Source: a virus. Taken from it: a DNA stretch of 64,000 nt. The translations under genes and the position numbers were made by a program. The notes under the pieces were generated by a model, which was not told the DNA's origin, ran no database searches, and saw only the letters and a list, made by a program, of their open reading frames with translations. The stretch lies in the IMG/VR virus record IMGVR_UViG_3300036828_000142, positions 8,423 through 72,422 of that record. One strand, written 5' to 3'. Shown piece after piece: positions 43,193 to 59,944 of the stretch; positions within the stretch are counted from its first letter, which is position 1, and the number at the start of each line of letters is the position of its first letter.

Positions 43193-43195
43193 GCG

Positions 43196-44848
43196 GTGCC
43201 TGCGGTCAAAGCCAAGGATCGTCACAAGGAGGTCCAGCGCCACAAGAAGGTGACCGCTGCTGACGTGGGGTTGACTGACGAGGACGCCGCCAGGGTTCAC
43301 CGCAACCAGAAGCGGGCGACGAGCCACCTCCAGGATGAGCTTCGAGCCCCGGACTTCTGGAAGACGAGGCTGCGGACGTTGGTGCGGTGGGAGGGGCACA
43401 CCATCGACATCTCCCGGCTGTGCGACACGCTGACGTGGCAGGATCAGTCCTCCGACGATCTGCGGAACATCAACACGCAGGCGGCGATGACGGGCTCGCT
43501 GACGCTGCACAAACCAGCGTTGCGGGAGTACGACCGGCTCGCGCCGTTGATCTTCCCCGGCGAGTCGTTCTCCGCCCGGATAACGAAGGACCGCACGTAC
43601 CTCAAACCTGGTGCGATGGGCTCGCAGATCATCTGCCAGGTGGGGTACGGCAACACGTACACGAACCTGTGGGTGATGCGGGTCGTGCCGGGCTACAACG
43701 CCAACACGGCCGAGCAGGTCACCCTGTCGGACGGGTCGTGGACGCTGTCGCTCGCCGACGAGCTGTGGAACCTCGCTCAGAACGTCGCGGACTACAAGTA
43801 CACGAAGGGCAAGAAGATCCGCCCGAACGGGTGGCGCTGCGACGAGATCGCGCACGACCTGTGCCGCCGCTACCGCATCCCCGTGCGGTTCCTCGCCCAA
43901 GGCACCGCGTACTTCGGGCTCACGCACGCGCAGACGACGCTGACCTCCCCGATCCACGTCATCACCGAGGCGTACCACGAGGAGACGAAACGCACCGGCC
44001 GGACGTTCATCATCCGCTGGGGCGCTCCGAACAAGCAGTTCCCCGTCGGCGCTCTGGAGGTCGTTCCGATGCGCCGCAACCGGCTGCTGTACGCGCTGCG
44101 CGAGCAGCTTCTCGAAGCGACGCTCGGTCGCAGCCAGAGCGCTGACTTCGCGACGGTGATCGAAGCACGCGGCCAGATCGTCACCGGCACCAAGAAGAAG
44201 AAGACGAAGAAGGTCACCTACACCGCTTTGAACAAGCGCGCGATCCGGCGCAACGGGTGGGTGCGCAAGACGATCAACTTCGGGAAGGTCGAGTCCGAGG
44301 CGGAGCTGAAAATCCTCGCGACCCGGATGCTCGCGGTCAGGCTGACGCCGGTGCGCACGGCCGAGCTGACGAACCCTGGGATCGCGACGATCCGACGCGG
44401 CGACGCGGTGCGGATCAACCTGCCGGAGGAGGGCTACACCAGCGTCAAGCTGCTGCCGTACGCCGAAGTGCAGGCCAAGATCAGCCCGGCGCTTCGCCAG
44501 GCCGAGAAGCTCGACCCGTCGCTGTTTGACCTGGCCACCGCAAGCGTCGGCGCATTGGCCCCAAACACCTCCCAGAAGCTCCTGGACGCCAACGTGCCCG
44601 CCCGGCTGCCCGTCGCCGACCAGGGAATCGCGTTCGTCACCTCCGCCGTCCACAGCGCCTCAGCGGGGTCCTACACGATGGACCTTCAGATGGGATTCAT
44701 CGACGTGCTCGACCCTGCCGAGATCCGCGCGCAGGTTGACCAGGCCGTCCGCCGGTACAAGGCCGGTCAGAAGAACGCGGTGTGGACCGCGAAGCAGAAG
44801 GCGGCGGCGGCAGCCAAGAAGAAAGCCCAGGAGAAGAAGGGCGGCTGA
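43196..44848 (+). CDS. Baseplate hub (XkdQ/YqbQ-like)
   Basis: Synteny; IRRGDAVRI, SAVHS...YTMDL. Confidence 0.7.
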   Translation: MPAVKAKDRHKEVQRHKKVTAADVGLTDEDAARVHRNQKRATSHLQDELRAPDFWKTRLRTLVRWEGHTIDISRLCDTLTWQDQSSDDLRNINTQAAMTGSLTLHKPALREYDRLAPLIFPGESFSARITKDRTYLKPGAMGSQIICQVGYGNTYTNLWVMRVVPGYNANTAEQVTLSDGSWTLSLADELWNLAQNVADYKYTKGKKIRPNGWRCDEIAHDLCRRYRIPVRFLAQGTAYFGLTHAQTTLTSPIHVITEAYHEETKRTGRTFIIRWGAPNKQFPVGALEVVPMRRNRLLYALREQLLEATLGRSQSADFATVIEARGQIVTGTKKKKTKKVTYTALNKRAIRRNGWVRKTINFGKVESEAELKILATRMLAVRLTPVRTAELTNPGIATIRRGDAVRINLPEEGYTSVKLLPYAEVQAKISPALRQAEKLDPSLFDLATASVGALAPNTSQKLLDANVPARLPVADQGIAFVTSAVHSASAGSYTMDLQMGFIDVLDPAEIRAQVDQAVRRYKAGQKNAVWTAKQKAAAAAKKKAQEKKGG

Positions 44849-45216
44849 TGCTCCCACCAGAACCGTTCGTGCTCGACGCACGCCAGGCGCTGCTTGACGC
44901 CCAAGCACTGTTCGCGGGGTCGGCGGTGCCGCGCGGGTTCTTCGCCGTGAGCTGGTACGGCACCGCGACCTCCGACGAACGCGGAAGCTTCGGGATCGTT
45001 GACCCGGTGATGGGGCTCGCTGACTGTGTGGGCGAGGTCGTGGAGGTGACGTACTCGTCGCTGTTCGTCCGCCAGGGCCAGAAGACCGTGCGGGTGTACG
45101 TGATCGGCTCCGAACAGAACCTCGGCACGGACCTCTCGATCACCCGGCGCTGCTACCTGGAGCTGGAGCGGCTCGCGCTCGACCCGATCAACGCGAGCGT
45201 CGGGATCGTGCAGTGA
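44848..45216 (+). CDS. Hypothetical baseplate-region protein
   Basis: TGATG coupling. Confidence 0.6.
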   Translation: MLPPEPFVLDARQALLDAQALFAGSAVPRGFFAVSWYGTATSDERGSFGIVDPVMGLADCVGEVVEVTYSSLFVRQGQKTVRVYVIGSEQNLGTDLSITRRCYLELERLALDPINASVGIVQ

Positions 45217-48200
45217 GCGGACGGCTGCAACTCAAAGACGCCCTGAAGTCCCACGGCGAGCAGATCACCCGCCGCCACAAGTCCGTCCGCCGCGCGAACG
45301 TCACCGGGATCAACCCGCTGACGGTGGAGCTACAGGACCACGACGTGCCGCTGATCGAAGGCGAGGACTTCGAGCTGTCGCAGTGGGCCGAGGCGTACCA
45401 GACCTCCGTGAAGCTCGATGTCGGCGACGTGGTGCTGCTGCACATGGAGGAGCACGACTGGGTGCTGCTCGACATCGTGTCCGACAAGGACATCGGCACC
45501 ATCGGCGGCAGCGGCAACGGCAAGACCGGACCGACAGGGCCAGCGGGCCCACGCGGACCGACCGGCGACCAGGGGATTCAGGGATACCAGGGAGCGACGG
45601 GACCGACCGGACCCGCCTCGAACGTCCCCGGTCCCACCGGACCAACGGGTCCCGGCTCGACGGTCCCAGGGCCCACGGGCCCAACCGGACCGACCGGCGG
45701 CACGGGACCGCAGGGCAACATCGGAGGAGGCTGGGCGGAGGTCAGCGGCACCCCACCAAACCCCAACACGCCCAACCCGGCCCCACCGATGGGGTACCTG
45801 TGGGTTGACTCCGCCGAGGCCGTCCAGACCGGCGACACTGGGCCCACAGGACCGACTGGGCCAACGGGTCCTCCGGGGACGCCGGGCACGGCGGTGCTGA
45901 TGGACAAGTGGCATTACGTCGGCGGGACGGGCGAGCCGACGTTCCAGAACGGCTGGACGAACTACAGCGGCTTCCAGTCAGCATCGTTCCGCAAGTACCC
46001 GGACGGCACGGTCCTGGTACGAGGGCTCGTGCAGAGCGGCACGGCCGCACCGTCGCTGATCTTCACCCTGCCGACCGGCTACCGCCCGCTGGGACGGCAG
46101 ATTTTCGTCAACGACGCCAACTCGGACGTGCACGCCCGTGTCGATGTGGACGTGACCGGCGCGGTGACCTGGATGTTCGGCGGCACCAACGCCTACGTGG
46201 CGATCAACGCCTACTTCGACACCGAGTCGGTCACCTCGTGGCTGACCGGACCCCCAGGAGCGACCGGAGCGACCGGACCTGCCGGGCCGACCGGCGCAGC
46301 CTCAACCGTGCCCGGACCAACGGGACCGACGGGTCCGACTGGAGCTACAGGCGCGATGGGACCGGCCGGACCGACCGGCGCAGCTTCGACAACGCCCGGT
46401 CCTCCCGGACCGACCGGCGGACCCGGACCGATAGGCGATACCGGACCAGCGGGACCAGCAGGAGGCCCGACAGGCCCGCCAGGGGGGACGGGACCTGCCG
46501 GACCCACAGGACCAACGGGTCCAACGGGGTCGGTTGGTACGTCCTACGCCGCACGACTTACTAGAAGCGCGAGCATCACCACCTCGGCCAATGTCTGGCA
46601 ACGAGTTCCGTTTGACGCGACTGATTTCGATAGCACCTCGTCCGTGCAGATTGCTAACAGCCGGTACGTCTGCCCAATAGCCGGGACATACGACGTGACT
46701 GTCACCGTTGGAGTCGGTGCGACAGGAGGCTCCCCGAATACGGTCGTGGCCGCTCTGTACAAGAACGGCGCACTTGACTCGTTCGGCACCCAACAGCAGG
46801 CTGCCAGCACAAACCAAACGATCTCGGCTGTCTACGCAGGCAGCACGCACTGCAACGCGGGGGATTACCTCGAAGGGTGGACGTACACCAACGCCGCGCT
46901 CCCGCTTTACACCGGCGGCTACACGCACATGGAGGTGGCGCTCACGAGCGGCGGCGGACCCACCGGGCCGACCGGCCCGCCAGGACCAACCGGACCGGCG
47001 GGCACAGGCACCACGGGCATCTCGGGCGCGTACGTCGAGGTGGTCGCCGTACCGCCTGACGCCAACAACCCGAAGCCCGCCCCGCCAGAGGGGTATCTGT
47101 GGCTCGACACGTCCGACGTTGCCGCGACCAGGCCGGTGTACGACACCGACCAGATCGGGACCGTCAAGTCGTTCAGCGGTCAGACGATCCCGGTGAACTG
47201 GCTGCTCGCCGATGGAAGCTCGCTGCCGCGCGGCAGCTACCCAGACCTGTTCGCCGCTATCGGCACCACCTACGGGTCGGTGGACGGCACGCACTTCAAT
47301 CTGCCTGACCTGCGCAACCGGTTCATCTACGGAGCGAACACTCTGAGCGCGGCAGGCGGGGTGGGCGGCGAGACGACGCACACGCTGTTGGCGAGTGAGG
47401 TGCCCTCGAACTTCGCTTCCAGCGCGCAGTCAGTTTGGAACGCCATATCAGGGGCAGCGCCCCCAGCGGGATCGACCTACTGGTACCCGTTGGTGCCCGC
47501 TGCTAATGGGGTGACTCAGGGCGGCGGCGCGGCGCACAACAACCTGCCGCCGTACGTGCTGATGGCGCAGATCATCAAGGCCACCGGGGTGCAGCTCGAC
47601 TCGGGCTCCGCGCTCGTTGGAGCGACGGGGAAGCGCGGGGCGATTTGGTACATGTACAACGGCACCGGCACGCCGTCTGCTGGCACGTTCGCGGGGGAAC
47701 TTGACGGGGATTGGTGCATCCGCAAGACGGACGGGGAGAACTTCGAGCGCGTCGGCGGCGTGTGGGTAGACCAGGGGTTCACCAACCGGACCACGGCAAC
47801 AGTCTCAGCGGCGCGGGCCAACCACCAGGCAGCGTTCACGATCTCTACTGCGAACACCTGGATGAAGGTTCCGCTCGACACGTTGCAGTTCGATACCACG
47901 GGCAGCAGCATGGTGCAGCTATCGAACGGACGGATCGTCTGCCCCGTGGCTGGCTGTTATCAGGTCGAGGGGCAACTGATGATCAACAACGCAGCAAGCA
48001 GCGGGAATCGTGTCCTGGTGGGGGTTGGAAAGAACGGCACGGTATTGAGCGAGGCCGGAGCTACTCCTCCGGCTGGGTGGATGGACCCGTGCGTCGCTGA
48101 TGTGGTTCAGTGCAACGCGGGCGACTACTTTGAACTGTTCGCGTACGCGAACACCGCCGGTACAGCGCTTTACACCGCTGCTGGGAACACGCAGGTCAAC

Positions 48201-48692
48201 TACTTGTCTGTCGCGCTGATCTCGGCAGGACCAGGGCCGCAGGGACCGCAGGGACCGCAGGGCACCATGTACTCAACGCAGCGCGTCCTCGGCAAGAGCG
48301 GCGCTTTGCAAAACGTCACGTTCGACGCAACCGTGTCTGACGGAGCAGGTGGCCTGATGCAGTTGTCGATCACACCCACCATCCCGGTGTGGTGGGAAGT
48401 CTCGGGCCAGGTTGGCTACGTGCTGAAGGTGGACGCTGCATACAACTACCTGTGCGGCTCGCTGAACCTGTCGCCCACCGACCAGGACGGGCAGTCCGCG
48501 ATGTACCAGTACGTCGAGCAGCACAACTCGGTCAACAAGTTCGAGGGTCGTTCGGTCACGCACCTCTATCGGCTGTCGGCTGGGACGACCTACACCGTGG
48601 CCCTGAGGCTCGGTAACTCCGACGGCGGGACTTGGCAGTATTACTCAGGCCCATCGCAGCTCTTGTTGACCGGGAAGGCGTGGGCACAGTGA
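45213..48692 (+). CDS. Spike-like N-terminus (XkdR/DUF2577-like) fused to a collagen, C1q-like and tail-collar fibre
   Basis: VTGINPLTV..LDVGDVVLL..WVLLD; GPT runs; two C1q-like domains; collar GTVKSF..WLLADG..YPDLFAAIG..FNLPDLR. Confidence 0.8.
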   Translation: MSGRLQLKDALKSHGEQITRRHKSVRRANVTGINPLTVELQDHDVPLIEGEDFELSQWAEAYQTSVKLDVGDVVLLHMEEHDWVLLDIVSDKDIGTIGGSGNGKTGPTGPAGPRGPTGDQGIQGYQGATGPTGPASNVPGPTGPTGPGSTVPGPTGPTGPTGGTGPQGNIGGGWAEVSGTPPNPNTPNPAPPMGYLWVDSAEAVQTGDTGPTGPTGPTGPPGTPGTAVLMDKWHYVGGTGEPTFQNGWTNYSGFQSASFRKYPDGTVLVRGLVQSGTAAPSLIFTLPTGYRPLGRQIFVNDANSDVHARVDVDVTGAVTWMFGGTNAYVAINAYFDTESVTSWLTGPPGATGATGPAGPTGAASTVPGPTGPTGPTGATGAMGPAGPTGAASTTPGPPGPTGGPGPIGDTGPAGPAGGPTGPPGGTGPAGPTGPTGPTGSVGTSYAARLTRSASITTSANVWQRVPFDATDFDSTSSVQIANSRYVCPIAGTYDVTVTVGVGATGGSPNTVVAALYKNGALDSFGTQQQAASTNQTISAVYAGSTHCNAGDYLEGWTYTNAALPLYTGGYTHMEVALTSGGGPTGPTGPPGPTGPAGTGTTGISGAYVEVVAVPPDANNPKPAPPEGYLWLDTSDVAATRPVYDTDQIGTVKSFSGQTIPVNWLLADGSSLPRGSYPDLFAAIGTTYGSVDGTHFNLPDLRNRFIYGANTLSAAGGVGGETTHTLLASEVPSNFASSAQSVWNAISGAAPPAGSTYWYPLVPAANGVTQGGGAAHNNLPPYVLMAQIIKATGVQLDSGSALVGATGKRGAIWYMYNGTGTPSAGTFAGELDGDWCIRKTDGENFERVGGVWVDQGFTNRTTATVSAARANHQAAFTISTANTWMKVPLDTLQFDTTGSSMVQLSNGRIVCPVAGCYQVEGQLMINNAASSGNRVLVGVGKNGTVLSEAGATPPAGWMDPCVADVVQCNAGDYFELFAYANTAGTALYTAAGNTQVNYLSVALISAGPGPQGPQGPQGTMYSTQRVLGKSGALQNVTFDATVSDGAGGLMQLSITPTIPVWWEVSGQVGYVLKVDAAYNYLCGSLNLSPTDQDGQSAMYQYVEQHNSVNKFEGRSVTHLYRLSAGTTYTVALRLGNSDGGTWQYYSGPSQLLLTGKAWAQ

Positions 48693-51600
48693 GCCCCGTC
48701 CTCAAATACTGGGATGCGGCGAGCAGTGCGTACCTGCCCGTCAGCATCGCGGGACCACCCGGACCGACCGGGCCGATTGGACCTCCGAACATCCAGGGGG
48801 TGCTGACCGACCCGTCGCAGCTTCCGGCGAACGGCAACACTGGTGACGCCTACGTGGTGCTCCGCACCGCTCCGGGCGGCCCAGGACCTACGGGACCGAC
48901 CGGACCAACAGGACCTCCTGCGACCGTTGCGGTCACGGCCGCGCGGGGGTACCGGAACACTGCGTTTACGCTCGTGGCGAGCGGGAACAGCTACATACCG
49001 TTGGACACGGCGAGCTTCGACACGGGCGGGATGCTCGACCTGCCGAACGGACGCATCGTCGCGAAGGTCGCGGGCTACTACGCGGTTGAAGCGAATCTCT
49101 ACTTCTCTGCCGCTGCCAGCGGCTGCGTCGTCACGATAACGAAGAACCACGCCCAACAGATGACGGTAGGCGTGAATACGCCAGGGCAGGTTTCCTCGAC
49201 TGCGGCCGATGTCCTTTACCTCAACGCTGGGGATTACCTCGAACTGAGCTGCTACAACCAGGGCGCTGCGGTAGCCGTAACGAACGTTGCTGGCGGCAAC
49301 TACCTCGCGGTGACAATGATCACCGCAGGCGCGGGACCGGTAGGCCCGACCGGAGCGACAGGGGCGACCGGGCCAGCCGTCACCCCGCCGTCGGTCGTTG
49401 CAGCACACGCCTACCGAGCCGCTGCGTACACGCTGACCTCCCAGGCGTGGCAGGCGATCCCGCTTGACACCAAGGCATACGACACCGGGAACAACTTCAA
49501 CACGGCCACCGGCAAGTTCGTCGCTCCGGTGGCGGGCTACTACCTGTGCACCGGGATGGTGGGGTCCACGCCGGGTACGACGGGAATCCTTGTCGGGCTT
49601 CAGCTCAACTCGACCACGCCTGCTACTCGTGGCTCGGCCGCAGCCGCTGTTGGTGCCCCGCTCGGGATCATGGCGGGCAACGTCGCCGAGGTGATCCACT
49701 GCAACGCGGGGGATACGCTCGCACTGGCGTGCTTCCCGGCGGCAGGTGACGTGCTCTACAGCGGGACTGCTGCCACGTACCTGACGGTGGTGCTGATCAC
49801 CGCTGGTGCGGGACCCACCGGACCCGTCGGACCAGCATCGACGGTCCCAGGACCTACTGGTCCCTCGGGGCCTACCGGTCCAGGAGCTAGCGGGCTGAAG
49901 CTCGTGCGGCCAAACGCCAACTACCTGGCGCGACCGAACGATCTCGTGGTCCCGAACAGCAGCATCACCGTCACGCTCCCCGACGACACGAGCAACGGCG
50001 GGTCCGGCACGGTGCCAGACGGGGCGATCATCCAAGTGGTGGGCAACTCCGACTACGGGCAGTGGATCTCGCTGGCGGTCGAGGGTTACAGCGGGATCTA
50101 CGGCCCCGACAGTGCGCCGATCAACTACCTGCAAGGCCGGTGGTCGCAGAGCTACACGTTCCTGTATTCCCTCAGTGACGCGATGTGGATGGTGCTCGAC
50201 ACCACCGTGCCCGCGATGGGTGTTGCGCAGGTGCAATCCCCGGCAGGAACGGGAGCGGCCGTGCAGGCTCGCGTCGGCGACTTGGTGATGCCTCGTGGCA
50301 CGGGTGCGACTGTGACGCTGCCGTCGGGCGGGACGGTCGCTGGCTACACGACGGCGTACACGGGCTCGGTGGTCGAGGTCGTTGCGCTCGCGGACAACGT
50401 GCCTGTCACGCCCGCGCGATCCAACGACCCGCTGGTCCTGCTCGACGGCACCATCTTGCCTGCGGGCGCGGCGTACACGGTGCCGATGGGTACGAGCGCG
50501 ACCTTCCAGTGTGCTGCTGGCTGGGGTCGCTGGCAGGTCGTGAGGCAATCACAGCCGCCCGTGTCGTTCGGTATGACCGCACCCAACCCCCGGAACGGGT
50601 CCACGGTATGGGTGCAAGGGCAGCCAACCGCTCTGTCGGCGATCCAGACCATTGGTGCGAACTCGGCCAGCGGTACGTCCGTATCGTTGGGCACCCACCA
50701 GCCGGGGGACATGATCATCATGGTCGCGCGGCGGGCGAACAACACGCCGCCAACGATCCCGGCTGCGGGCGGCACCGTGCCGCCGTGGACGCAGATTTTC
50801 GGGGCTACCGGCGTGAACACCCTGAGCCACGTCGTCGCCTTCACGATTGCGACAGCCAGCAACCATACGTCGGGCACGTGGACGAACGCGGCCAACGTCG
50901 GGATGATGGTGTTGCGCGGCAACCGTGCGCTGAGCATCGGGGCGAGCGCCTCGGGCTCGGGCGCGACTTCCGCCGTCACCTTCCCAGCGCTGACGTTGCA
51001 AAGAGCCGACGGCACATCGTGGGGTCTGCGTATCCACAACCGGGCCGGGACCGGTAACACGATGGTGAACCCGCCTGCGCCGTGGCTGAACGTGTGGACG
51101 CAGCCTTCCGGTTCAAGCGCCCTCCTGGGACTGTGGGTCGCGGCACCGATCAGCGCCAACCCGACCGCCGACCTGGTGACGGGCGGGTCGAACGCTGCGT
51201 GGGAGGCCGACACCATCGAGATCCTCGTCGCGCCGCCACCGACACCGCCCGTGCCGGTGCTCAACCTGTGGGATGGGCTGAAGTGGGAGGTGGCGTCGCC
51301 GTCCGGCACAGCGAGCGGCGACCTGGGTGGAAGCTACCCGAGCCCGACGCTGGCGATTCCCCGCGCCAGATCAAAGACGCTCTCCATTCCGGCTTCGATG
51401 ACGAATGGCAGTGTGACCGTCACGACTTCGGGGTGGACGCTGGGCAACGGCATGGCGGTCAGCGGCAACGGCATCGCAGTTCCACGCGCCGGTTATTACA
51501 GAATCTGGGGCCAAGTCACGATTGCACCCGTGGCTTCGGGTACTGGTGCCTACATACAGCTCACACCACAACTGAACGGAGCCAACACCCAAGATGGCAT

Positions 51601-51766
51601 CGGCACAATGGCGCTCACCCCGAACACTTCATACGCCAGCGTGACCTGTTTCGATGAGGTCCACTGCAACGCTGGCGACGTGCTGACGCTCCAGTTCACC
51701 AACGCAACGGGTGTAGCGCTCAACTCAAACGGCGGCGTGTTTGTCGCGGAGTATGTGGGGCAATGA
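48689..51766 (+). CDS. Collagen/C1q-like multidomain tail fibre
   Basis: Three C1q-like domains (e.g. FDTGGM..NGRIVAKVAGYY; YDTGNNFNTATGKFVAPVAGYY) with GPT linkers. Confidence 0.8.
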   Translation: MSPVLKYWDAASSAYLPVSIAGPPGPTGPIGPPNIQGVLTDPSQLPANGNTGDAYVVLRTAPGGPGPTGPTGPTGPPATVAVTAARGYRNTAFTLVASGNSYIPLDTASFDTGGMLDLPNGRIVAKVAGYYAVEANLYFSAAASGCVVTITKNHAQQMTVGVNTPGQVSSTAADVLYLNAGDYLELSCYNQGAAVAVTNVAGGNYLAVTMITAGAGPVGPTGATGATGPAVTPPSVVAAHAYRAAAYTLTSQAWQAIPLDTKAYDTGNNFNTATGKFVAPVAGYYLCTGMVGSTPGTTGILVGLQLNSTTPATRGSAAAAVGAPLGIMAGNVAEVIHCNAGDTLALACFPAAGDVLYSGTAATYLTVVLITAGAGPTGPVGPASTVPGPTGPSGPTGPGASGLKLVRPNANYLARPNDLVVPNSSITVTLPDDTSNGGSGTVPDGAIIQVVGNSDYGQWISLAVEGYSGIYGPDSAPINYLQGRWSQSYTFLYSLSDAMWMVLDTTVPAMGVAQVQSPAGTGAAVQARVGDLVMPRGTGATVTLPSGGTVAGYTTAYTGSVVEVVALADNVPVTPARSNDPLVLLDGTILPAGAAYTVPMGTSATFQCAAGWGRWQVVRQSQPPVSFGMTAPNPRNGSTVWVQGQPTALSAIQTIGANSASGTSVSLGTHQPGDMIIMVARRANNTPPTIPAAGGTVPPWTQIFGATGVNTLSHVVAFTIATASNHTSGTWTNAANVGMMVLRGNRALSIGASASGSGATSAVTFPALTLQRADGTSWGLRIHNRAGTGNTMVNPPAPWLNVWTQPSGSSALLGLWVAAPISANPTADLVTGGSNAAWEADTIEILVAPPPTPPVPVLNLWDGLKWEVASPSGTASGDLGGSYPSPTLAIPRARSKTLSIPASMTNGSVTVTTSGWTLGNGMAVSGNGIAVPRAGYYRIWGQVTIAPVASGTGAYIQLTPQLNGANTQDGIGTMALTPNTSYASVTCFDEVHCNAGDVLTLQFTNATGVALNSNGGVFVAEYVGQ

Positions 51767-53808
51767 GCAGCGGCAATCTATACGTGGGGGATCTCTACAT
51801 CCGGGAGGGTGGCACCTGGCAGGAGGCCGGGCTAATCCAGGGCGGACCTGGACCGTCTGGACCGACTGGGCCGACGGGACCGGCCGGTCCGTCGAGCCTG
51901 GGGCTGTCCTATGCGGCCAGGGCGTACCGCGCGGGGGCGTTCACAGTGAGCACAGGCAGCGCCTGGACCGCCATCCCGGTGGACACCATCAGCCACGACG
52001 CCAACGGCTGCATTGCCACCAACAACGGCTGGTACACATGCCCGGTGGCCGGGGTCTACGACGTGGCCGTCAACCTATACATCAACACTCCTGGCACGAC
52101 CTACGTCAACCAGGCGGTCGGCATCTTCCTGAACGGCTCTGTAGTCAGCATGTTCAACATCGACGTAGCGATGAGTTCGTACGGCGGACTGAGTCATTCC
52201 GACAAGATCAAGTGCAACGCGGGCGACCGCCTGCAACTGGCGGCGTTCATCTCGTCCGCACCACAGGCACTGCTTATCAACGGGGCCTGCAACTTCCTGT
52301 CCGTGTCGCTCGCGAGCGGCGGCGGACCCACTGGACCCACCGGACCGGCGGGAGGGCCAGCAGGCCCAACGGGACCGACAGGACCGACCGGCCCGGCTGC
52401 AACGACGACCGCCGCGCGGGCGTATCGCCAGGCGGCGTTCACCACCACCGCAAGTTGGACGAAGGTGCCGCTGGATACCGCCAGCTTCGACACCCAGGGC
52501 AACATGCTCAACCTCGTGAACGGCCGGATCGTCTGTCCGGTGGCAGGCATCTACGCGGTGGACGCGAACCTTCTCGTCCCAACCAGCGCTACCGGGACGT
52601 ATACCAACATCGCTGTCGGGATCAACAAGAACGGCAGCCAGATCGCGCAGAACTACTCCACGCCTGCGATTGCGAACTTCGGGTCAGCAACGATCTCGGA
52701 CAAGGTTCAGTGCAACGCTGGGGACTACCTCGAACTGTTCGTAATCGACTCGCAGGGCGGCGCGCTATGGCAAGGCTCGCCAGCGAACTACCTGTCCGTC
52801 GCGCTGCTCACAGCGGGGCAAGGACCGACAGGACCAGCGGGACCGGCGGTAGGACCAACAGGCCCGACTGGACCGACTGGGCCGACGGGTCCGCCAGCGA
52901 CCGTCACAGTCACGGCGGCGCGCGCATACCGGAACGCGGCGTTCACGCTTCCTGCTGGAGCGTGGACGAAGATTCCGCTGGACACTGCCAACTACGACGT
53001 GGCCAACAACATGCTGAACCTTGTCAACGGCCGATTGGTGTGTCCGACGACAGGGCTCTACGACATTGCTGCTATGGCCCAGCTAAACATGCCGGGGACC
53101 GCCACGCAAGTAACTATGGGCGCTGCGATCTACAAGAACGGTGGCGTGGTTACGGAGTCGGCGTCCATCGTCACGATGTCGGGCTACGCAACTGCTGTTG
53201 TCTCCGACAAGATCCAGTGCAACGCAGGGGATTACCTCGAACTGTGGGCGTACAACCAGCAAGGTCTGGGTGTCGGGGCCTATACGATGACTACGTTCCT
53301 CGCGGCGGCGCTGATCACAGCGGGCGCAGGACCGCCTGGCCCGCCGGGACCGCCCGGTGGGGTGCAGCCAGCGATGAGGATGACGCTTGCGAACAGCATG
53401 GCGATAGCGCTGAACGTCGCGACGATGCTTGCGTTCGACACTCCCGGTTGGGCGCAGGGCGGAATGATCCGCTCGCCGAACGGTGGCTTCATCGTGCCGG
53501 TCGCTGGGGTCTACCAGGTCATCTGCAACATGCTCTGGAACACAGACATCGCGACTGGGCGCGTGGACTACATGATCGTCAACTACACCCAGCAGGGGCT
53601 GGCTGGTGGCGACGTATCCAGCGCCTTTGGCGGCGGCGGCATTTTCGCTCACGTCAACGGCCAGTATCAGTCGAGTAGTTTCTCCGGGCTCGTACAAGCC
53701 AACGCGGGCGATGTGCTCGGCGTGGTGCTGATGAACCGTGCGGGGGCGGGGACGATCTACGGCGTCGGTAACTGGACGATGGCGCACTGTGTCCGAGTGA
53801 GCAGCTAA
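51763..53808 (+). CDS. Tail fibre with four tandem collagen/C1q-like units
   Basis: Repeated AARAYR...P.DT..D...NG...CP..G.Y...CNAGDYLEL. Confidence 0.8.
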   Translation: MSSGNLYVGDLYIREGGTWQEAGLIQGGPGPSGPTGPTGPAGPSSLGLSYAARAYRAGAFTVSTGSAWTAIPVDTISHDANGCIATNNGWYTCPVAGVYDVAVNLYINTPGTTYVNQAVGIFLNGSVVSMFNIDVAMSSYGGLSHSDKIKCNAGDRLQLAAFISSAPQALLINGACNFLSVSLASGGGPTGPTGPAGGPAGPTGPTGPTGPAATTTAARAYRQAAFTTTASWTKVPLDTASFDTQGNMLNLVNGRIVCPVAGIYAVDANLLVPTSATGTYTNIAVGINKNGSQIAQNYSTPAIANFGSATISDKVQCNAGDYLELFVIDSQGGALWQGSPANYLSVALLTAGQGPTGPAGPAVGPTGPTGPTGPTGPPATVTVTAARAYRNAAFTLPAGAWTKIPLDTANYDVANNMLNLVNGRLVCPTTGLYDIAAMAQLNMPGTATQVTMGAAIYKNGGVVTESASIVTMSGYATAVVSDKIQCNAGDYLELWAYNQQGLGVGAYTMTTFLAAALITAGAGPPGPPGPPGGVQPAMRMTLANSMAIALNVATMLAFDTPGWAQGGMIRSPNGGFIVPVAGVYQVICNMLWNTDIATGRVDYMIVNYTQQGLAGGDVSSAFGGGGIFAHVNGQYQSSSFSGLVQANAGDVLGVVLMNRAGAGTIYGVGNWTMAHCVRVSS

Positions 53809-53818
53809 AGGAGATCGC

Positions 53819-54475
53819 ATGATCCTCGCCCAACTCGACCTCGATCAAGACCCGGCCGTGGTTCTGGTGCTCTACGACTACGCGAACGACACTCCGCCGT
53901 CGAACATGGTCGAGCCCGAATACGTGGACGTGACCGACGTGAGCCCGATGCCGCAGCCGGGGTTCACGTACGACGGCGAAACGTGGACTCCGGGGGTTCC
54001 GCAACAGCGAGCGGACAACCGCGACTCCATCGAGAACGAGCTGCGCAAGGAGCACGCAGCCAACGAAGCGTTCCTCGTCTTGGAAGCGCCCACCAGCGAC
54101 GAGCTGGCCGCGCAGGTGACCGCGCTGACGGTGCAGTGCCAGGGGTTCATCCGCACCTCGTTGCAGGAGTACGACGAAACCGTTCCGCCGCCAGCGCGAG
54201 TTCCCGGCGAGCGCGCTCTCGATTCCGTGAGCCCGAGCGAAGGTCCAGCCGCAGGCGGTACCGAGGTCACGCTGCGCGGCTCCGGGTTCACGAACATTGG
54301 CGGGGTCAGGTTCGAGGGAGTCGGGCAGACGGGCTGGGCGTGGTCGTTTGAGGTTGTTGACGACGAGACGATCACGTGCCCCACGCCGCCGATGCCGGTC
54401 GGAACGGTGGACGTGATCGCGTTTGACGGCGATCCCGGTGACGCGGTGCTGGAGAACGGGTTCACATACACATGA
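53819..54475 (+). CDS. Fibre chaperone-like N-terminus plus IPT/TIG domain
   Basis: VDVTD..P.PQPGFTYDG; VSPSEGPAAGGTEVTLRGSGF...GFTY. Confidence 0.75.
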   Translation: MILAQLDLDQDPAVVLVLYDYANDTPPSNMVEPEYVDVTDVSPMPQPGFTYDGETWTPGVPQQRADNRDSIENELRKEHAANEAFLVLEAPTSDELAAQVTALTVQCQGFIRTSLQEYDETVPPPARVPGERALDSVSPSEGPAAGGTEVTLRGSGFTNIGGVRFEGVGQTGWAWSFEVVDDETITCPTPPMPVGTVDVIAFDGDPGDAVLENGFTYT

Positions 54476-55272
54476 GCCCCGTAATGAAATACTGGGACGA
54501 GAACGCCCAGGCGTACGTCGAGCTGGGGCTACGCGGCGTTCAAGGTCCGCCAGGTCCCGCAGGTGACGCGATCCCAGCGGGGCACATCATGGCGTTCGGG
54601 GGCGTGTCTCCTGCGACCGGGTGGCTGATGTGCGACGGCTCGGCGGTGCTGCGCTCCGCGTACCCGGCGCTGTTCGCCGCGATCTCCACTCGGTTCGGCG
54701 CGGGCGATGGCTCGACCACGTTCAATCTGCCGAACCTCCAGGACCGCGTGCCGGTCGGTGCCAGCGGCACCAAGGCGGTCGGGTCTACGGGGGGCGAATC
54801 GGCGCACACGACCACCATCACCGAGTTGCCCTTGCACAGCCACAACGGGGTGACGGCTGGTGGTACGACCGGCGGCGGCACGTCGGGCAACACCGACGTG
54901 GACCACTACCACGCGGGCACCACCAACGCCGCCGACCGCAGCCTCGCGCACGACCACACGCTCGGCAACAACGCCTGGGCGACCCTGTTCGACCGGGTTG
55001 TCGGCTCTGGCAACTACGCGCAGCTCCAGACCGTCAGCGGCGGCGCTGCCTGGTGGAGCGGCGCGAACTGGACCAACGGACAGTCCATCTCAATCGACCA
55101 CCTCCACTCGTTCACGACGAACTGGCAGTCGCAGCAGTACGCCACGAACAACCACAGCCACTCGATCCCCGGCCTGTCGGTACCGGGGCTTGGTATCGCT
55201 GCGCAGGGGGGTGGCGCGGCCCACAACAACATGCAGCCGTACGTCGCGATGAACTACGTCATCAAATACTGA
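54472..55272 (+). CDS. Tail-collar domain fibre protein
   Basis: PAGHIMAF..GWLMCDG..YPALFAAI..GDGSTTFNLP; HxH repeats; HNNMQPY. Confidence 0.85.
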   Translation: MSPVMKYWDENAQAYVELGLRGVQGPPGPAGDAIPAGHIMAFGGVSPATGWLMCDGSAVLRSAYPALFAAISTRFGAGDGSTTFNLPNLQDRVPVGASGTKAVGSTGGESAHTTTITELPLHSHNGVTAGGTTGGGTSGNTDVDHYHAGTTNAADRSLAHDHTLGNNAWATLFDRVVGSGNYAQLQTVSGGAAWWSGANWTNGQSISIDHLHSFTTNWQSQQYATNNHSHSIPGLSVPGLGIAAQGGGAAHNNMQPYVAMNYVIKY

Positions 55273-55285
55273 CTGAGGAGCCCGA

Positions 55286-55744
55286 ATGCCCAACCTCTAC
55301 TACGTCGGGATGCAGCTCTTGGCCGACGACCCGGATGCGCTGCTTGAACGGCTGTCGGCGCTGACCCTCGAAGATGGCGAAGGGATCACCTCGATCACCC
55401 AGCAGCCGGAGAGCGTCCCGGTACCACCCCACCTGTCGCCCATCGTGCCGCCGCCGCCGCCGCTGACCGGACGGACCCTCAGCCTGGTGAACCCGTCCGA
55501 AGGCCCGGTCAGCGGTGGCATCACGATCACGCTGCATGGCAGCGGCTTCACGGGCATCGGCGGTGTTCGCTTCGAGCGCGGCGGGCAGACCGGCTGGGCG
55601 GATGCGTTCGAGGTCATTGACGACCAGACGATGACTTGCAACACCCCGCAAATGTCGGCTGGTCCGGTCGATGTGATTGCGTTCGACGGCGACCCTGGCG
55701 ATGCGGTTCTTGCGAACGGGTTCACCTACATCGAGGAGGCATGA
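55286..55744 (+). CDS. IPT/TIG domain protein (paralogue of 53819)
   Basis: VNPSEGPVSGG..GSGF..GGVRFE..VDVIAFDGDPGDAVL.NGFTY. Confidence 0.75.
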   Translation: MPNLYYVGMQLLADDPDALLERLSALTLEDGEGITSITQQPESVPVPPHLSPIVPPPPPLTGRTLSLVNPSEGPVSGGITITLHGSGFTGIGGVRFERGGQTGWADAFEVIDDQTMTCNTPQMSAGPVDVIAFDGDPGDAVLANGFTYIEEA

Positions 55745-55951: not shown

Positions 55952-56485
55952 GTGAGCGCCATCGAACCCGACGCGCTGGACTACGACCTGCTGCCAGCCG
56001 ACCCTGGGCTGATCAACCCCGATCTCGCGCTCGACGCGGCGCTCGCCCCGGTCGAGGACATCGAGACGGACGCGCCCGCGCCGTTCGGCCGGTCGTGGCG
56101 GTTCGACTTCCAGGCCGGGCAGTTCCTGCGCGACGGGACCATCCCGAAGGTCGTCTACGAGCTGGACACGCTGATCGTGTGGATCGAGAAGACGTTGCGG
56201 ACCGCGCAGATCGCGCATCCGATCTACGCCGACGAGTACGGGGTGGACAACCCCGACGAGCTGATCGGCCAGACGCTCAGCGGCGAGGAGGACCTGTCCG
56301 CGTACGAGGAGTCGATCACAGCGGCGCTGACCTACCACGACCGGATCATCTCCGTCGAGGGATTCAGCTTCGACCAAGACCCGTTTGAGGAAACGGTCCA
56401 AGCATCGTTCACAGTGATGGTCGATGCCGCACCACCGTTGGAAGCCCAGCCACTTGAGTTCTCGGGTGTGCCCGTAGGAGGCTGA
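55952..56485 (+). CDS. Baseplate wedge/sheath initiator (XkdS/DUF2634-like)
   Basis: WRFDF..G.F, WIEKTLRT, IY..EYG, AL..HDRI.SV. Confidence 0.8.
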   Translation: MSAIEPDALDYDLLPADPGLINPDLALDAALAPVEDIETDAPAPFGRSWRFDFQAGQFLRDGTIPKVVYELDTLIVWIEKTLRTAQIAHPIYADEYGVDNPDELIGQTLSGEEDLSAYEESITAALTYHDRIISVEGFSFDQDPFEETVQASFTVMVDAAPPLEAQPLEFSGVPVGG

Positions 56486-56488
56486 TGG

Positions 56489-57970
56489 ATGACCGACCTC
56501 GCTGAGTTCACCGAACTGTTCTCAGAGACGCTCGCGCGGGTTCGCGCCCGGCTGGACGCTGACGCGAACGCGGGGTTGACGGACGACATGCCCGCGTGGA
56601 TCGACGTTCGCGAGGGCGGCTTCTACTGGGATGTGACGCAACCCCCGGCGATGGAGATGGCGAGGCTGTGGGACGCGATGACGGAAACGGCGGCGGCGGC
56701 GTTCCCGTCCACCGCGTGGGGCGACTACCTCGATGAGCATGGGCTGACGTTCAACCTGACGCGCGACCCGGCCATCGCCGCGCTCGGGTCGCTGGTGTTT
56801 GTCGCGACCGCCGTGGTGCTGATCGCCGCCGGAACCCAGGCGTCCTCGACCGCTTCGCAGACCGGCGACGTGATCACCTTCCAGACGCTTGAGTCCGGGA
56901 CGACGTGCGCTCAGCTCGTCACCCCGTCGAACGTGGTCGCTGCCGCTGCCGCCACGGGCGGGACGCTGACCGCCGCGACGCGCTACTACCACGTCACCGC
57001 GCTCAACGAGTTCGGGGAGACGGTCGGGTCGGCGGACAAGGCTGCGGTCACCTCCTCCAACACGGGCCGGAACACGATCACGTGGAACCCGGTGGCTGGC
57101 GCGTCGTCCTACCAGGTGTACGTTACCCAGGTCCAAGCGACGCTCGGGTTTCTGGTCGGCTCGACCGTCGCGACGACGTTCATTGACGACGGCACGATCA
57201 ACCCGTCAGACCCAGAGCCGACGCTGAACACCACGTCCGGAGTCACGCTCGCGTCCGGGGCGGTCACCGCTGGCACCGCCGGGAACGTCGCGGCCGGGGC
57301 CGTCACGTCGCTGAACACCGTGATCCCGGAGGTCTACTCCGTCAACAACCCCGCTCCGTTCCAGGGCGGGCAGGAGGAGGAGTCAGACGACGACTTCCGC
57401 GACCGCATCCTCGGCCAGTACGTCGGCACGTCCGGCGGCGGCAACCAGGCCGACTACCGCCGCTGGTGCGTGGCGCAGGGCGTCGAGCGCGTGGCTGTCG
57501 TGCCTGTCTGGGATGGGCCGGGAACGGTGCTGGTGATCATCATGCAAACGGACGGGTCGCCGGTTCTGGCGTCGTTGGTCACCACGATCCAGACCTTCCT
57601 CGACCCGGTGGCGGGGCAGGGCTCGGGCCAGGCTCCGATAGGTGCGACCGTGACGGTCACGACCTCGACGGTGCTGCCCATCGACATCACTTGCGAGGTG
57701 ATCCCGCAGCCCGGCTACTCGCTCGATGGCACCGGGGCCACCATCGCGTACCGCACCGCGATCCTGACGGCGCTCAGCAACTACCTCGGGTCGCTGGACC
57801 CAGGCGGTTCGGTGGTCTTCGAGCACGTCCAGGCGTGCTTCTTCGTGCCGGGCGTGCAGGACATCTCGGGCACCGTCGTGAACGGCATCACCAGCGGTTC
57901 GATCCCGCTGGCGAGCGGCACCCAACCCCAGGTCGCCCGACTCGGGACGATCAACTTCACCGAGCCGTAG
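56489..57970 (+). CDS. Baseplate J/gp47-like protein with inserted beta domain
   Basis: REGGFYWD, GDYLD, G..GNV..G, GG.EEESDD..R.R, GN..DY..W, GPGTV, PIGA. Confidence 0.9.
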   Translation: MTDLAEFTELFSETLARVRARLDADANAGLTDDMPAWIDVREGGFYWDVTQPPAMEMARLWDAMTETAAAAFPSTAWGDYLDEHGLTFNLTRDPAIAALGSLVFVATAVVLIAAGTQASSTASQTGDVITFQTLESGTTCAQLVTPSNVVAAAAATGGTLTAATRYYHVTALNEFGETVGSADKAAVTSSNTGRNTITWNPVAGASSYQVYVTQVQATLGFLVGSTVATTFIDDGTINPSDPEPTLNTTSGVTLASGAVTAGTAGNVAAGAVTSLNTVIPEVYSVNNPAPFQGGQEEESDDDFRDRILGQYVGTSGGGNQADYRRWCVAQGVERVAVVPVWDGPGTVLVIIMQTDGSPVLASLVTTIQTFLDPVAGQGSGQAPIGATVTVTTSTVLPIDITCEVIPQPGYSLDGTGATIAYRTAILTALSNYLGSLDPGGSVVFEHVQACFFVPGVQDISGTVVNGITSGSIPLASGTQPQVARLGTINFTEP

Positions 57971-57978
57971 GAGGAGCC

Positions 57979-58686: not shown

Positions 58687-58687
58687 G

Positions 58688-59926: not shown

Positions 59927-59944
59927 CCGAAAGGCTGTGAGAAC

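What the first reader, a model, noticed from the sequence alone, without database searches (positions are those of the whole stretch)
45740..54530. Fibre beta-motifs split between genes suggest branched assembly by strand complementation
Known: fibre proteins often contain contiguous motifs P..G.LW.DT....LK.W.G..W and LP..G..GDAY.V.GDLY.W.G..W...G.I.GP. Seen: 45213 has two first halves with no second half (PPMGYLWVDS ~45790; PPEGYLWLDTS ~47090), and two proteins begin with the second half (48689 SPVLKYWD; 54472 SPVMKYWD). 48689 has an orphan LPANGNTGDAYVV (~48840), and 51763 begins with GDLYIREGGTWQEAGLIQG. Within 48689 another pair (GSTVWVQ ~50600; PVLNLWDGLKW ~51260) brackets an inserted domain. 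Counts match 2:2 and 1:1. Inference: a plug-and-socket code that builds a branched multi-adhesin tree.
Basis: partly seen in the sequence, partly recalled or inferred. Interest (0 to 1): 0.72.

Follow-up and report, generated by a model that had tools for sequence, protein, structure and literature searches.

The report
Split beta-hairpin code in phage fibres
Tail-fibre genes of an uncultured high-GC phage carry matching halves of one small beta-sheet motif on different proteins, and related phages keep the same pairing, which suggests but does not prove that short N-terminal hairpins clip side fibres onto a parent fibre.

Summary
The region is the tail-fibre cluster of a contractile-tail phage (IMG/VR record, GC 66%), inserted between the needle (YQBQ-like) and sheath-initiator genes.

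- gA has two orphan "a-strand" modules after collagen (PPxGYLWxD[ST]).
- gB and gE begin with the b-c hairpin (SPV[LM]KYWD..Y..[VL]) followed by collagen.
- gB carries an orphan first part of the related motif (LP..G..GDAYVV), and gC begins with its last part.

- 18 of 19 socket-bearing contig groups encode at least one N-terminal plug protein nearby; counts are equal in 12 of 19.
- Seven loci of close relatives with a single giant gA have neither element.
- A diverged metagenome relative (L216) repeats 2:2 and 1:1 on different fibre bodies.
- AlphaFold2 folds the contiguous motif as one three-stranded meander (pLDDT 82).

Physical docking is not shown; my single complex prediction gave no verdict. 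The contigs are related, so the counts are not independent.

Verdict: observation confirmed, interpretation partly supported. It is a new variant of the known "branching site plus docking peptide" principle. Confidence in docking is about 0.5.

The parts
45213..48692 (+). gA, 1159-aa collagen-like multi-domain fibre, the proposed root. Order of parts: N-domain (aa 1-95), collagen runs, socket 1, beta-rich domain, C1q/BclA-like head, socket 2, tail-collar domain, contiguous motif-2 unit, second head, C-terminal domain.
   Evidence: ORF. Pfam Collar 72.6 bits, Collagen 38.2 bits, weak BclA_C. PHROG tail-fibre families. Collagen runs. It sits between the YQBQ-like and sheath-initiator genes, where phiCD508 has its needle tip.
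45723..45812 (+). Socket 1: GGGWAEV, a Pro-rich loop, then PPMGYLWVDS. It is an interruption between two collagen runs.
   Evidence: the same module type occurs in 19 contig groups
47022..47111 (+). Socket 2: SGAYVEV, a Pro-rich loop, then PPEGYLWLDT, lying between collagen and the collar domain. Relatives L007, L008 and L026 go straight from collagen to VYDTDQIGT at this place.
47706..47777 (+). Contiguous motif-2-like unit inside gA (GDWCIRKTDGENFERVGGVWVDQG)
48689..51766 (+). gB, 1025-aa fibre. Order of parts: plug, short collagen, orphan a' strand, C1q/BclA-like heads, an unassigned middle part, the a-strand / inserted domain / b-c module, C-terminal head.
   Evidence: start supported by ATG in L010
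48689..48751 (+). gB N-terminal plug (V/M)SPVLKYWDAASSAYLPVSIA, followed at once by G-X-Y triplets
   Evidence: 24-sequence plug alignment A2
48788..48859 (+). Orphan first part of motif 2 in gB: NIQGVLTDPSQLPANGNTGDAYVV, then LRTAPGG and collagen. Conserved in L216 ORF4 (LPPTAPDGDAYVVLR).
50582..51286 (+). Cis module in gB: a-strand PNPRNGSTVWVQ, an inserted roughly 212-aa minor-tail-type domain, then the b-c hairpin PVLNLWDGLKW.
   Evidence: phrog_13352 match at gB aa 654-762; 46% identity to L216 ORF2 including both flanks; module boundary in L010
51763..53808 (+). gC, 681-aa fibre of four C1q/TNF-like heads joined by short collagen runs
51763..51852 (+). gC N-terminal plug' MSSGNLYVGDLYIREGGTWQEAGLIQGGPG, the last part of motif 2, followed by collagen
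   Evidence: 60% identity over 20 aa to the N-terminus of the otherwise unrelated L216 ORF5
53819..54475 (+). gD, 218 aa. The N-terminal part is conserved next to gA homologues in relatives; the C-terminus is an IPT/TIG domain. Its stop overlaps the gE start (ATGA).
54472..55272 (+). gE, 266 aa: plug, four to five collagen triplets, then a tail-collar domain
   Evidence: Pfam Collar 77.2 bits; homologue P0009 has the same N-terminus
54472..54534 (+). gE N-terminal plug MSPVMKYWDENAQAYVELGLR
55286..55744 (+). gF, 152 aa, with a C-terminal IPT/TIG domain; role unknown
42002..45216 (+). Upstream baseplate context. A LysM-type protein whose N-terminus holds a contiguous motif-2 copy (42071-42160), the YQBQ-like needle/hub protein (43196-44848), and a 123-aa ORF with no family (44845-45216).
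55952..61075 (+). Downstream baseplate context. Sheath initiator (55952-56485), Baseplate J (56489-57970), a 238-aa protein, a weak Mu gp48-like protein (58682-59926), and a further collar-domain fibre (59945-61075).

Best explanation
The cluster encodes a hierarchically assembled set of collagen-like, C1q-headed tail fibres.

gA is the root. Its N-domain lies at the needle-tip position of the baseplate operon. Its stalk shows two orphan a-strand modules (sockets).

gB and gE each start with a b-c beta-hairpin (plug) that runs straight into G-X-Y triplets. gB in turn shows an orphan a' strand of the sister motif, and gC starts with the matching b'-c' hairpin.

Proposed mechanism: the N-terminal hairpin of a child fibre docks on the orphan strand of its parent. 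This rebuilds the three-stranded meander that is one contiguous unit in other phage fibres. The wiring would be gA to gB to gC, and gA to gE.

What is shown: the motifs, their rarity, their co-occurrence and count relation in relatives, the conservation of the N-terminal cassettes on swapped bodies, and the predicted single-sheet fold of the contiguous unit.

What is inferred: that plug and socket touch, that they do so by sheet completion, the stoichiometry, and which plug goes to which socket.
For: 1. Specificity. There are exactly 2 sockets and 2 plugs in the 72 kb record, and 0 of 5000 shuffles reach that.

2. Presence and absence in close relatives. The window lineage (L010, L013) has both. 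Seven loci of relatives with 68-79% identical baseplate proteins (L007, L008, L009, L024, L026, L027, L028) have a single giant or short gA, no socket and no plug.

3. Independent scans of IMG/VR. The socket DNA pattern gave 40 stretches and the plug pattern 14; 8 loci are shared.

4. Counts. 18 of 19 socket-bearing contig groups have at least one N-terminal plug ORF in the fetched locus, usually the next gene. Counts are equal in 12 of 19.

5. Apparent exceptions that dissolve. L072 and L211 have variant sockets in the upstream gene.

6. L216, a metagenome contig whose shared domain is 46% identical. It has two sockets (ORF1 and ORF3), two plugs (ORF3 and ORF4), an orphan GDAYVVLR in ORF4, and a next gene that starts MSTTEYTGDLWIRVDGDWQLAGLMRGGPPGP. 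That start has a GTGA overlap and a GGAGG ribosome site.

7. Swapped bodies. gC and L216 ORF5 share only the first roughly 20 residues. A conserved anchor on swapped bodies is what attachment modules show.

8. One structural unit. AF2 of the contiguous motif gives strands LWQD, ELKMW and WVR with pLDDT about 90 in that part. Domains are inserted between strand a and strands b-c in L030, gB and L216 ORF2.

9. Motif 2 is otherwise contiguous. There were 109 occurrences in the 80 loci I read, and only one lay near an ORF start, at a locus edge.

10. The same plug occurs in long-tail and contractile-tail contexts (L030 and the window). The socket is the only similarly shared element found in an all-against-all comparison of locus ORFs.
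Against: No physical or structural evidence of contact exists.

The contig groups share fibre head domains, so they are relatives. Co-occurrence may partly be common descent of one cassette, and no correction for relatedness was made.

Counts are not always equal. There is a plug excess in 5 of 19 groups: L030 2:3, L036/L051 2:3, L037 1:2, L062 1:3, L064 1:3. There is a socket excess in 2 of 19: L053 and L055.

Many proteins carry plug and socket in the same chain. They lie 6-30 residues apart in L045, L053, L047, L037 and L071, so self-completion or independent roles are possible.

The socket has its own upstream strand (YVEV) and could be a closed hairpin. The plug is also a hairpin. Each may fold alone as a cap of a collagen run.

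Geometry is awkward. gA continues on both sides of each socket, so a trimeric plug cannot stack coaxially. Docking would need splayed N-terminal arms.

Four short metagenome loci with plugs show no socket in the span held (L215, L217, L223, L233). Two IMG/VR loci do the same (L070, L075).
Confidence: 0.5

Rival explanations
1. Autonomous caps. The plug is an N-terminal trimerisation or registration cap of a collagen run. The socket is a C-terminal cap or spacer. The so-called contiguous motif is merely two neighbouring caps. They co-occur because fibre cassettes are inherited and shuffled together, not because they bind.
For: Plugs are always followed within 0-3 residues by G-X-Y triplets or a Gly-rich stretch. 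Sockets begin right where a collagen run ends. The usual order within one chain is plug, then collagen or Gly spacer, then socket. The loci share head domains, so they are related.
Against: gB and gC have many collagen-to-head junctions without any socket, so a socket is not needed to end collagen. Relatives with long collagen runs in gA (L008, L026) have no socket and no plug. This view does not explain why small proteins such as gE have no other candidate attachment part. It also does not explain why the split motif-2 pair recurs in L216 on unrelated bodies. AF2 sees strands a, b and c as one sheet.
Confidence: 0.25
2. The plug is a virion anchor, but for another partner: a baseplate protein, or the TIG-domain proteins gD and gF. 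Sockets would be unrelated stalk elements.
For: N-termini of receptor-binding proteins usually bind baseplate or adaptor proteins (established knowledge; mycobacteriophage examples in PMC13252515, passages read). gD ends in a TIG domain and its stop overlaps the gE start. In L030 a TIG-like domain directly precedes an internal LKYWDG in one chain.
Against: The same plug occurs with non-homologous tail tips: the long-tail-type locus L030 and the contractile window. No non-fibre family is shared by the plug loci. Relatives with 68-79% identical baseplate proteins have no plug proteins.
Confidence: 0.15
3. Recombination scars. Conserved short motifs are the crossover points of module shuffling. 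Half motifs are leftovers of illegitimate exchanges and have no pairing role.
For: Right after PVLNLWDGLKW, the C-terminal domain of gB differs between the window and its 99% twin L010. N-terminal cassettes are conserved while bodies are swapped. Fibre genes differ strongly among close relatives.
Against: Scars would not keep matched numbers of complementary halves across diverged contigs. They would not sit precisely at N-termini with intact starts and ribosome sites. They would not be conserved at protein level over GC 0.54-0.68.
Confidence: 0.1

Closest known systems
Branched receptor-binding-protein systems of Klebsiella podophages KP32, K11 and KP34: a branching domain on RBP1 and a conserved docking peptide on RBP2. 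Sources: PMC13352976, abstract start seen in the listing; PMC6872550, listing only.
   Same: A short conserved N-terminal element on a secondary fibre, with variable bodies behind it. The parent fibre carries the receiving site. Gene order is parent then child.
   Different: No T4gp10-like branching domain was found in gA. Here the receiving site would be a roughly 30-aa strand module inside a collagen stalk. The proposed contact is completion of a split beta-meander. The system has up to three tiers and occurs in high-GC phages.
Contiguous fibre repeats in other uncultured phages. These are PP.G.LW.DT....LK.W.G..W and LP..GN..[GN]DAYIV...GDLYVW.G..W...G.IVGP, found here's scans, not taken from a named family.
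   Same: The same residues and order. L092 repeats (GDQYLDTATGDVYEWDGAQWVPTGNIQGP) bridge the two motifs, so they are one family.
   Different: There the three strands lie in one chain. In the window they are divided between proteins, or separated by an inserted domain.
Donor-strand complementation of chaperone-usher pili (recalled; not looked up)
   Same: An incomplete beta-sheet of one subunit is completed by an N-terminal extension of the next, which gives ordered chains.
   Different: Pilins are Ig-like monomers assembled at an usher. Here the subunits are trimeric collagen-like phage fibres, with no chaperone or usher, and no evidence yet of the contact.
Central fibre proteins of mycobacteriophages Claus, Corndog and Mysterious (PMC13252515, passages read)
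   Same: A long flexible trimeric fibre whose N-terminal segment is anchored in the centre of the baseplate. gA sits at the equivalent gene position.
   Different: Those are long-tailed phages, and only the N-terminal 63-93 residues are resolved. No side-fibre docking on the central fibre is described in the passages I read.
PBSX / phiCD508-type contractile baseplate module (record OR295560.1, annotation seen)
   Same: The same gene order: tube initiator, needle, needle tip, sheath initiator, triplex 1, triplex 2, fibre. Pfam YQBQ, Sheath_initiator and Baseplate_J are all above their cut-offs.
   Different: About 10.5 kb of fibre genes lie between the needle and the sheath initiator. The candidate needle-tip domain is fused to a 1,060-residue fibre. 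Homology to the phiCD508 needle tip is not significant.
Collagen stalk plus C1q/TNF-like head proteins (BclA of Bacillus, C1q)
   Same: G-X-Y runs followed by jelly-roll heads. PDB 1wck BclA matches at E 1.7e-10. Pfam C1q is above its cut-off in gB and gC.
   Different: Here many heads are strung on one chain, combined with tail-collar domains and the split hairpin motifs.

Membership tests
Branched RBP system of the Klebsiella-phage type (branching domain plus docking peptide) | T4gp10-like branching domain on the primary fibre | tested here: not met
   Pfam (E<=0.01) and PHROG scans of gA list only collar, collagen, BclA_C and generic tail-fibre families.
Branched RBP system of the Klebsiella-phage type (branching domain plus docking peptide) | Short conserved N-terminal peptide on secondary fibres with variable bodies | tested here: met
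   Plug alignment A2 of 24 N-termini. gC and L216 ORF5 share only residues 7-26.
Branched RBP system of the Klebsiella-phage type (branching domain plus docking peptide) | Demonstrated binding of the peptide to the primary fibre | not testable with these tools
   Needs pull-down or a structure.
Phage tail collar domain proteins (PF07484) | Pfam Collar above the gathering score | tested here: met
   gA 72.6 bits, gE 77.2 bits and the 59945 fibre 63.6 bits, against a cut-off of 24.
Collagen-like / C1q-headed proteins | G-X-Y runs and a C1q-type head | tested here: met
   Collagen 38.2 bits (cut-off 27.2) in gA. C1q 36.3 bits in gB and 39.9 bits in gC (cut-off 23.7). BclA_C is below its cut-off. 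G-X-Y runs. BclA structure 1wck matches at E 1.7e-10.
PBSX / phiCD508-type contractile baseplate | YQBQ-like needle/hub, gp25-like sheath initiator and Baseplate J in that order | tested here: met
   34.6 bits (cut-off 27), 65 bits (32.9) and 148 bits (21.1). Order compared with the phiCD508 annotation. Mu gp48-like 33 bits is below its cut-off of 37.4.
PBSX / phiCD508-type contractile baseplate | gA N-domain is a needle-tip (XkdR-type) homologue | tested here: inconclusive
   No Pfam hit at E<=10. hhalign against the phiCD508 needle tip gives probability 2.6%. The AF2 model has pLDDT 45. Only gene position and conservation in five relatives support it.
Donor-strand complementation systems | An incomplete sheet in one subunit completed by the N-terminal strand(s) of the next | tested here: inconclusive
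   The contiguous unit is predicted as one three-stranded sheet, and split forms exist. No structure of a split pair is available.

The most novel reading that the evidence does not exclude
A sequence-readable wiring grammar for the fibres of uncultured high-GC phages. A three-stranded beta-meander is split so that orphan a-strands on a parent fibre receive the N-terminal b-c hairpins of child fibres. From gene sequences alone one could then read which fibre hangs on which.

The forms seen would be linear chains as in L216, a branched tree here, cis-closed units, and triplets of about 150-aa plug paralogues that may form heterotrimers. Phages would evolve new adhesin sets by moving roughly 20-60-aa cassettes.
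Probability: 0.35. Interest if true: 0.8.

Novelty: new variant of a known kind. Interest (0 to 1): 0.64.

Why it matters
If the pairing is physical, it gives a simple, testable rule for how multi-adhesin fibre networks are built in a large group of uncultured high-GC (presumably actinobacterial) phages.

It would let assembly topology be predicted from metagenomic sequence. It would also identify small portable anchor cassettes for swapping receptor-binding bodies, as is already done with docking peptides in Klebsiella phages.

It would add a second, mechanistically different solution to fibre branching: completion of a split beta-sheet at interruptions of a collagen stalk. If it is not physical, the motifs are still useful markers of module boundaries in these fibres.

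Tried and rejected
- Complex prediction. Chains were gA aa 580-794 x3 (alignment A1) with gE aa 1-40 x3 (alignment A2). Score 0.02 against a mark of 0.32; controls were not run. The tool's verdict is no answer, so I do not count it for or against binding.
- AF2 of the gA N-domain from a 5-sequence alignment: pLDDT 45, unusable.
- hhalign of that alignment against the phiCD508 needle tip: probability 2.6%.
- Pfam at E<=10 on the gA N-domain and the 123-aa ORF: nothing.
- Megablast of the cluster against 50,697 phage records: no match. tblastn of the L045 cis protein against the same records: no match.
- PDB sequence searches. gA matched only BclA, collagens and a hyaluronidase's collagen part. 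gB matched nothing. The profile of the contiguous motif gave 0 hits at E<=10.
- Foldseek of the 52-aa motif model against the PDB: no hit at E<=0.001.
- First plug DNA pattern, with Leu as NTG only: 12 stretches, of which only L013 is a relative.
- Plug pattern in 185,579 species genomes: 14 stretches. Thirteen are out-of-frame or short unrelated ORFs and one is a 92-aa ORF without collagen (L080). So there is no prophage copy and no host clue.
- Literature. 'tail fiber' + 'strand complementation' + phage + trimer gave 0 papers. The motif strings LKYWD, LLWVDT, YLWVDT and LWxDT gave 2 unrelated papers. Nothing on these motifs appeared in the listings.
- Rejected idea: that gD and gE are one protein joined by a frameshift. 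There is only an ATGA overlap and no further evidence.
- Rejected idea: that the socket is an obligatory neck between collagen and head. gB and gC have such junctions without it.

Full report
WHAT THE REGION IS. The window is bases 8423-72422 of a 72.4 kb IMG/VR virus record, estimated 58% complete, GC about 66%.

Around the finding lies a contractile-tail baseplate operon:
- a LysM-type protein (42002-43192)
- a YQBQ-like needle/hub protein (43196-44848, Pfam 34.6 bits)
- a 123-aa ORF without family
- six genes I call gA to gF (45213-55744)
- the sheath initiator (65 bits)
- Baseplate J (148 bits)
- a weak Mu gp48-like protein
- a further collar-domain fibre

In Clostridioides phage phiCD508 the annotated order is tube initiator, needle, needle tip, sheath initiator, triplex 1, triplex 2, fibre. 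So about 10.5 kb of fibre genes sit where that phage has only a needle tip. The conserved 95-aa N-domain of gA is the candidate needle-tip part. This rests on gene position and conservation only; sequence and fold tests were inconclusive.

The fibre proteins:
- gA (1159 aa), gB (1025 aa) and gC (681 aa) are beads on a string. Short G-X-Y runs alternate with C1q/BclA/TNF-like heads, tail-collar domains and other beta-rich domains.
- gE is a 266-aa collar-domain protein.
- gD and gF end in IPT/TIG domains.

No cultured phage in the 50,697-record collection is similar at DNA level.

THE OBSERVATION. All eight strings are at the stated coordinates. A six-frame scan of the whole record finds two sockets and two N-terminal plugs and no others. 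None of 5000 shuffles reaches these counts.

The gB start at 48689 (GTG, overlapping the gA stop) is supported by an ATG at the same place in the 99% twin L010.

The socket is larger than described. Directly after a collagen run comes a short strand (WAEV or YVEV), a roughly 13-residue Pro-rich loop, and then PP.GYLW.D[ST].

THE MOTIFS ELSEWHERE. A degenerate DNA pattern for PP.G.LW.DT found 40 stretches in IMG/VR. Their translations fall into two classes.
- In lower-GC phages the strand is followed at once by the hairpin, for example PPLGQLWQDTSQTPDELKMWDGANWVRV.
- In 23 high-GC loci it has the window's form: collagen or a Gly-rich stretch, .Y..V, a Pro-rich loop, PP.GLLWVDTS, and no hairpin after it.

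AlphaFold2 on a contiguous unit, using ten units as the alignment, gives mean pLDDT 81.7. It predicts three strands, LWQD, ELKMW and WVR, with about 90 pLDDT over that part. So strands a, b and c are predicted to form one small meander. No solved structure matched by sequence profile or by Foldseek.

A scan for the last part of the second motif returned 120 stretches. I read 80 of them (L091-L170) and found 109 occurrences, all internal. The one occurrence near an ORF start lay at a locus edge. My strict first-half regex found a first half in 45 of the 109. In the 46 rows printed from those it missed, a [GN][DE].Y..-type first half is visible by eye in all but that edge case.

The L092 repeats (GDQYLDTATGDVYEWDGAQWVPTGNIQGP) combine features of both motifs.

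THE PLUG IS A WIDESPREAD N-TERMINUS. Twenty-four N-termini from the window and fetched loci align to MP.LKYWD.A...Y..L.G followed by G-X-Y. A gE homologue of 42% identity (P0009) begins MTPVLKYWDENLKEY.

A DNA pattern for MP.LKYWD found 14 stretches in IMG/VR. Eight of them had already been fetched by the socket pattern.

The same pattern over 596 Gb of species genomes gave 14 stretches with no collagen-linked plug: 13 out-of-frame or short unrelated ORFs and one 92-aa ORF without collagen (L080). So the phage hits are specific, and no prophage copy or host clue emerged.

(a) Close relatives. Baseplate proteins 68-79% identical to the window's occur in loci L007, L008, L009, L024, L026, L027 and L028. 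There gA is a single giant protein (1414-1651 aa where complete) or a short one (L027). Those loci contain no socket and no plug. At the place of socket 2 these relatives go straight from collagen to VYDTDQIGT.

(b) Socket-bearing contigs. After merging duplicates there are 19 groups including the window.
- 18 have at least one ORF starting with a plug in the fetched locus. That is 16, plus L038 and L039, whose plug ORFs are cut by the locus end.
- Counts are equal in 12 of 19.
- Plugs exceed sockets in 5: L030, L036/L051, L037, L062 and L064. These are mostly tandem triplets of about 150-170-aa paralogues.
- Sockets exceed plugs in 2: L053 at a contig end, and L055, whose strand is probably followed by a variant hairpin.

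(c) Plug-first sampling. Of 14 high-GC metagenome loci with a plug ORF:
- 7 have a socket by the strict regex
- 3 more have variants (LWIDP or LWINP in L214/L227; ELLWVDT in L211)
- 4 show none in the span held: three are short or cut upstream (L215, L217, L223), and L233 is the small L071-type ORF

L072, which looked like an exception, has ALWVDV in the gene just upstream.

(d) L216, a metagenome contig whose shared domain is 46% identical to gB, repeats the whole grammar in another arrangement:
- ORF1 (at least 1174 aa) has the socket PPMGYLWISP.
- ORF3 starts VSPILRYWDEELQAY and carries PPMGYLWIDT.
- ORF4 starts MPVLKYWDEDLQEY and carries LPPTAPDGDAYVVLR with nothing after it, as in gB.
- ORF5 starts at a GTG overlapping the ORF4 stop, behind GGAGG. 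It reads MSTTEYTGDLWIRVDGDWQLAGLMRGGPPGP, as in gC.

gC and ORF5 are alike only in these 20 residues. Their bodies are four C1q-like heads in one, and a beta-rich domain plus collar in the other.

PNPRNGSTVWVQ, domain, PVLNLWDGLKW in gB aligns with PSPRGQYTLWIQ, domain, IPKLWFWDGTEW in L216 ORF2 (E 4e-57). L030 has the same logic with a TIG-like insert.

In L216 one gene even ends ...GYIIDGELWIYQGPSGG, followed by TAA. The next gene, behind its own GGAGG, begins MSVGGWSNVGNIRGPTGPQG. There the motif is cut at a gene boundary.

HOW IT MOST LIKELY WORKS. I commit, at about even odds, to hierarchical docking. The N-terminal hairpins of gB and gE bind the orphan strand modules of gA. The hairpin of gC binds the orphan strand of gB. 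Each contact rebuilds the meander seen in contiguous units.

The reasons:
- the coupled gain and loss of both elements
- the count relation
- conservation of 20-60-aa N-terminal cassettes on swapped bodies
- the lack of any other attachment candidate in gE
- the use of the same plug in phages with non-homologous tail tips, with no other shared family found

Because gA continues past each socket, a child trimer cannot stack coaxially. The short triplet runs after the plugs (4-5 triplets) would have to splay so that three arms grip the parent. This is inference.

WHAT WEAKENS IT. Nothing shows contact.

The contig groups share head domains and are relatives, so k-of-n figures overstate independence.

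Counts are unequal in 7 of 19 groups.

Plug and socket often lie in one chain 6-30 residues apart (L045, L053, L047, L037, L071). There they may close on themselves or act as links in a chain; both readings fit the counts.

Both halves are hairpins that might fold alone as caps of collagen runs.

One apparent covariation is confined to four similar fibres (L038, L039, L065, L069) and may be a single event: sockets with PYAPV go with short-hairpin plugs Y[WY]DG..Y..L.

COMPARISON WITH THE KNOWN. The principle of a parent fibre with a receiving site and a child fibre with a conserved docking peptide is established for Klebsiella podophages (PMC13352976 abstract start; PMC6872550 listing). gA lacks the T4gp10-like domain that defines those systems.

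Central fibres anchored in the hub are described for mycobacteriophages (PMC13252515, passages).

Completion of an incomplete sheet by the next subunit's N-terminus is how chaperone-usher pili work (recalled).

I found nothing in print on these motifs or on strand complementation in tail fibres.

I therefore rate this a new variant of a known kind.

Noticed in passing
window 45213-45497 (gA aa 1-95): The gA N-domain is conserved (41-69% identity) in five relatives. It occupies the gene position of the phiCD508 needle tip. A contractile-tail phage may thus carry a fibre of more than 1000 residues on its central needle. Homology and fold tests were inconclusive.
   Followed up: partly
window 42071-42160: The LysM-type protein upstream of the needle gene begins with a contiguous copy of the second motif (LPDTAKTGQWYVTTHNVMWVWEGAAWQIAG). 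The motif is therefore not confined to fibres.
   Followed up: no
L216 10370-10480: A fibre motif is cut by a gene boundary. One ORF ends ...GYIIDGELWIYQGPSGG with TAA. The next starts at ATG behind GGAGG, in the same frame, with MSVGGWSNVGNIRGPTGPQG. This may be an end-to-end joint between two proteins, or a read-through site.
   Followed up: partly
L030 7515-8905; L064 (minus strand; reverse-complement nt 8887-10400); L062 (minus strand; reverse-complement nt 698-2770): Tandem triplets of about 150-200-aa paralogues follow one socket-bearing fibre gene. Each has a plug, a short collagen run and a small C-terminal domain. They may form heterotrimers, like the three chains of C1q or gp35/36/37 of phage Mysterious.
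   Followed up: no
L010 15479-19084 versus window 48689-51766: In a contig 99% identical in the needle/hub protein, gB has an extra beta-rich domain. It also has a different C-terminal domain starting right after PVLNLWDGLKW, so this hairpin marks a module boundary.
   Followed up: partly
L007, L009, L010, L013, L023, L024, L026, L028: Contigs of this phage group tend to end inside the fibre genes, probably because collagen-like repeats break assemblies. Counts from such fragments are lower bounds.
   Followed up: no
window 53819-54475 and L008 9753-10445, L028 1104-2051: The gD family keeps its N-terminal half next to gA homologues but swaps the C-terminal domain. It is IPT/TIG in the window, and apparently also in L028 (by eye). 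In L008 and L024 it is a different Ig-like domain that looks PKD-like by eye; that was not tested.
   Followed up: no
window 61090-61509: A small ORF right after the last fibre gene has weak LAGLIDADG endonuclease matches (19.1 and 17.8 bits, below the cut-offs).
   Followed up: partly
window 62294-63986, minus strand: A RecT-family protein (81 bits) and a PD-(D/E)XK nuclease (36 bits) lie side by side on the opposite strand, marking the start of a recombination module.
   Followed up: partly
L038, L039, L065, L069: Sockets with the strand PYAPV go with short-hairpin plugs (Y[WY]DG..Y..L). All other sockets (AY..V) go with long-hairpin plugs. This may be covariation, but the four loci are closely related.
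   Followed up: partly
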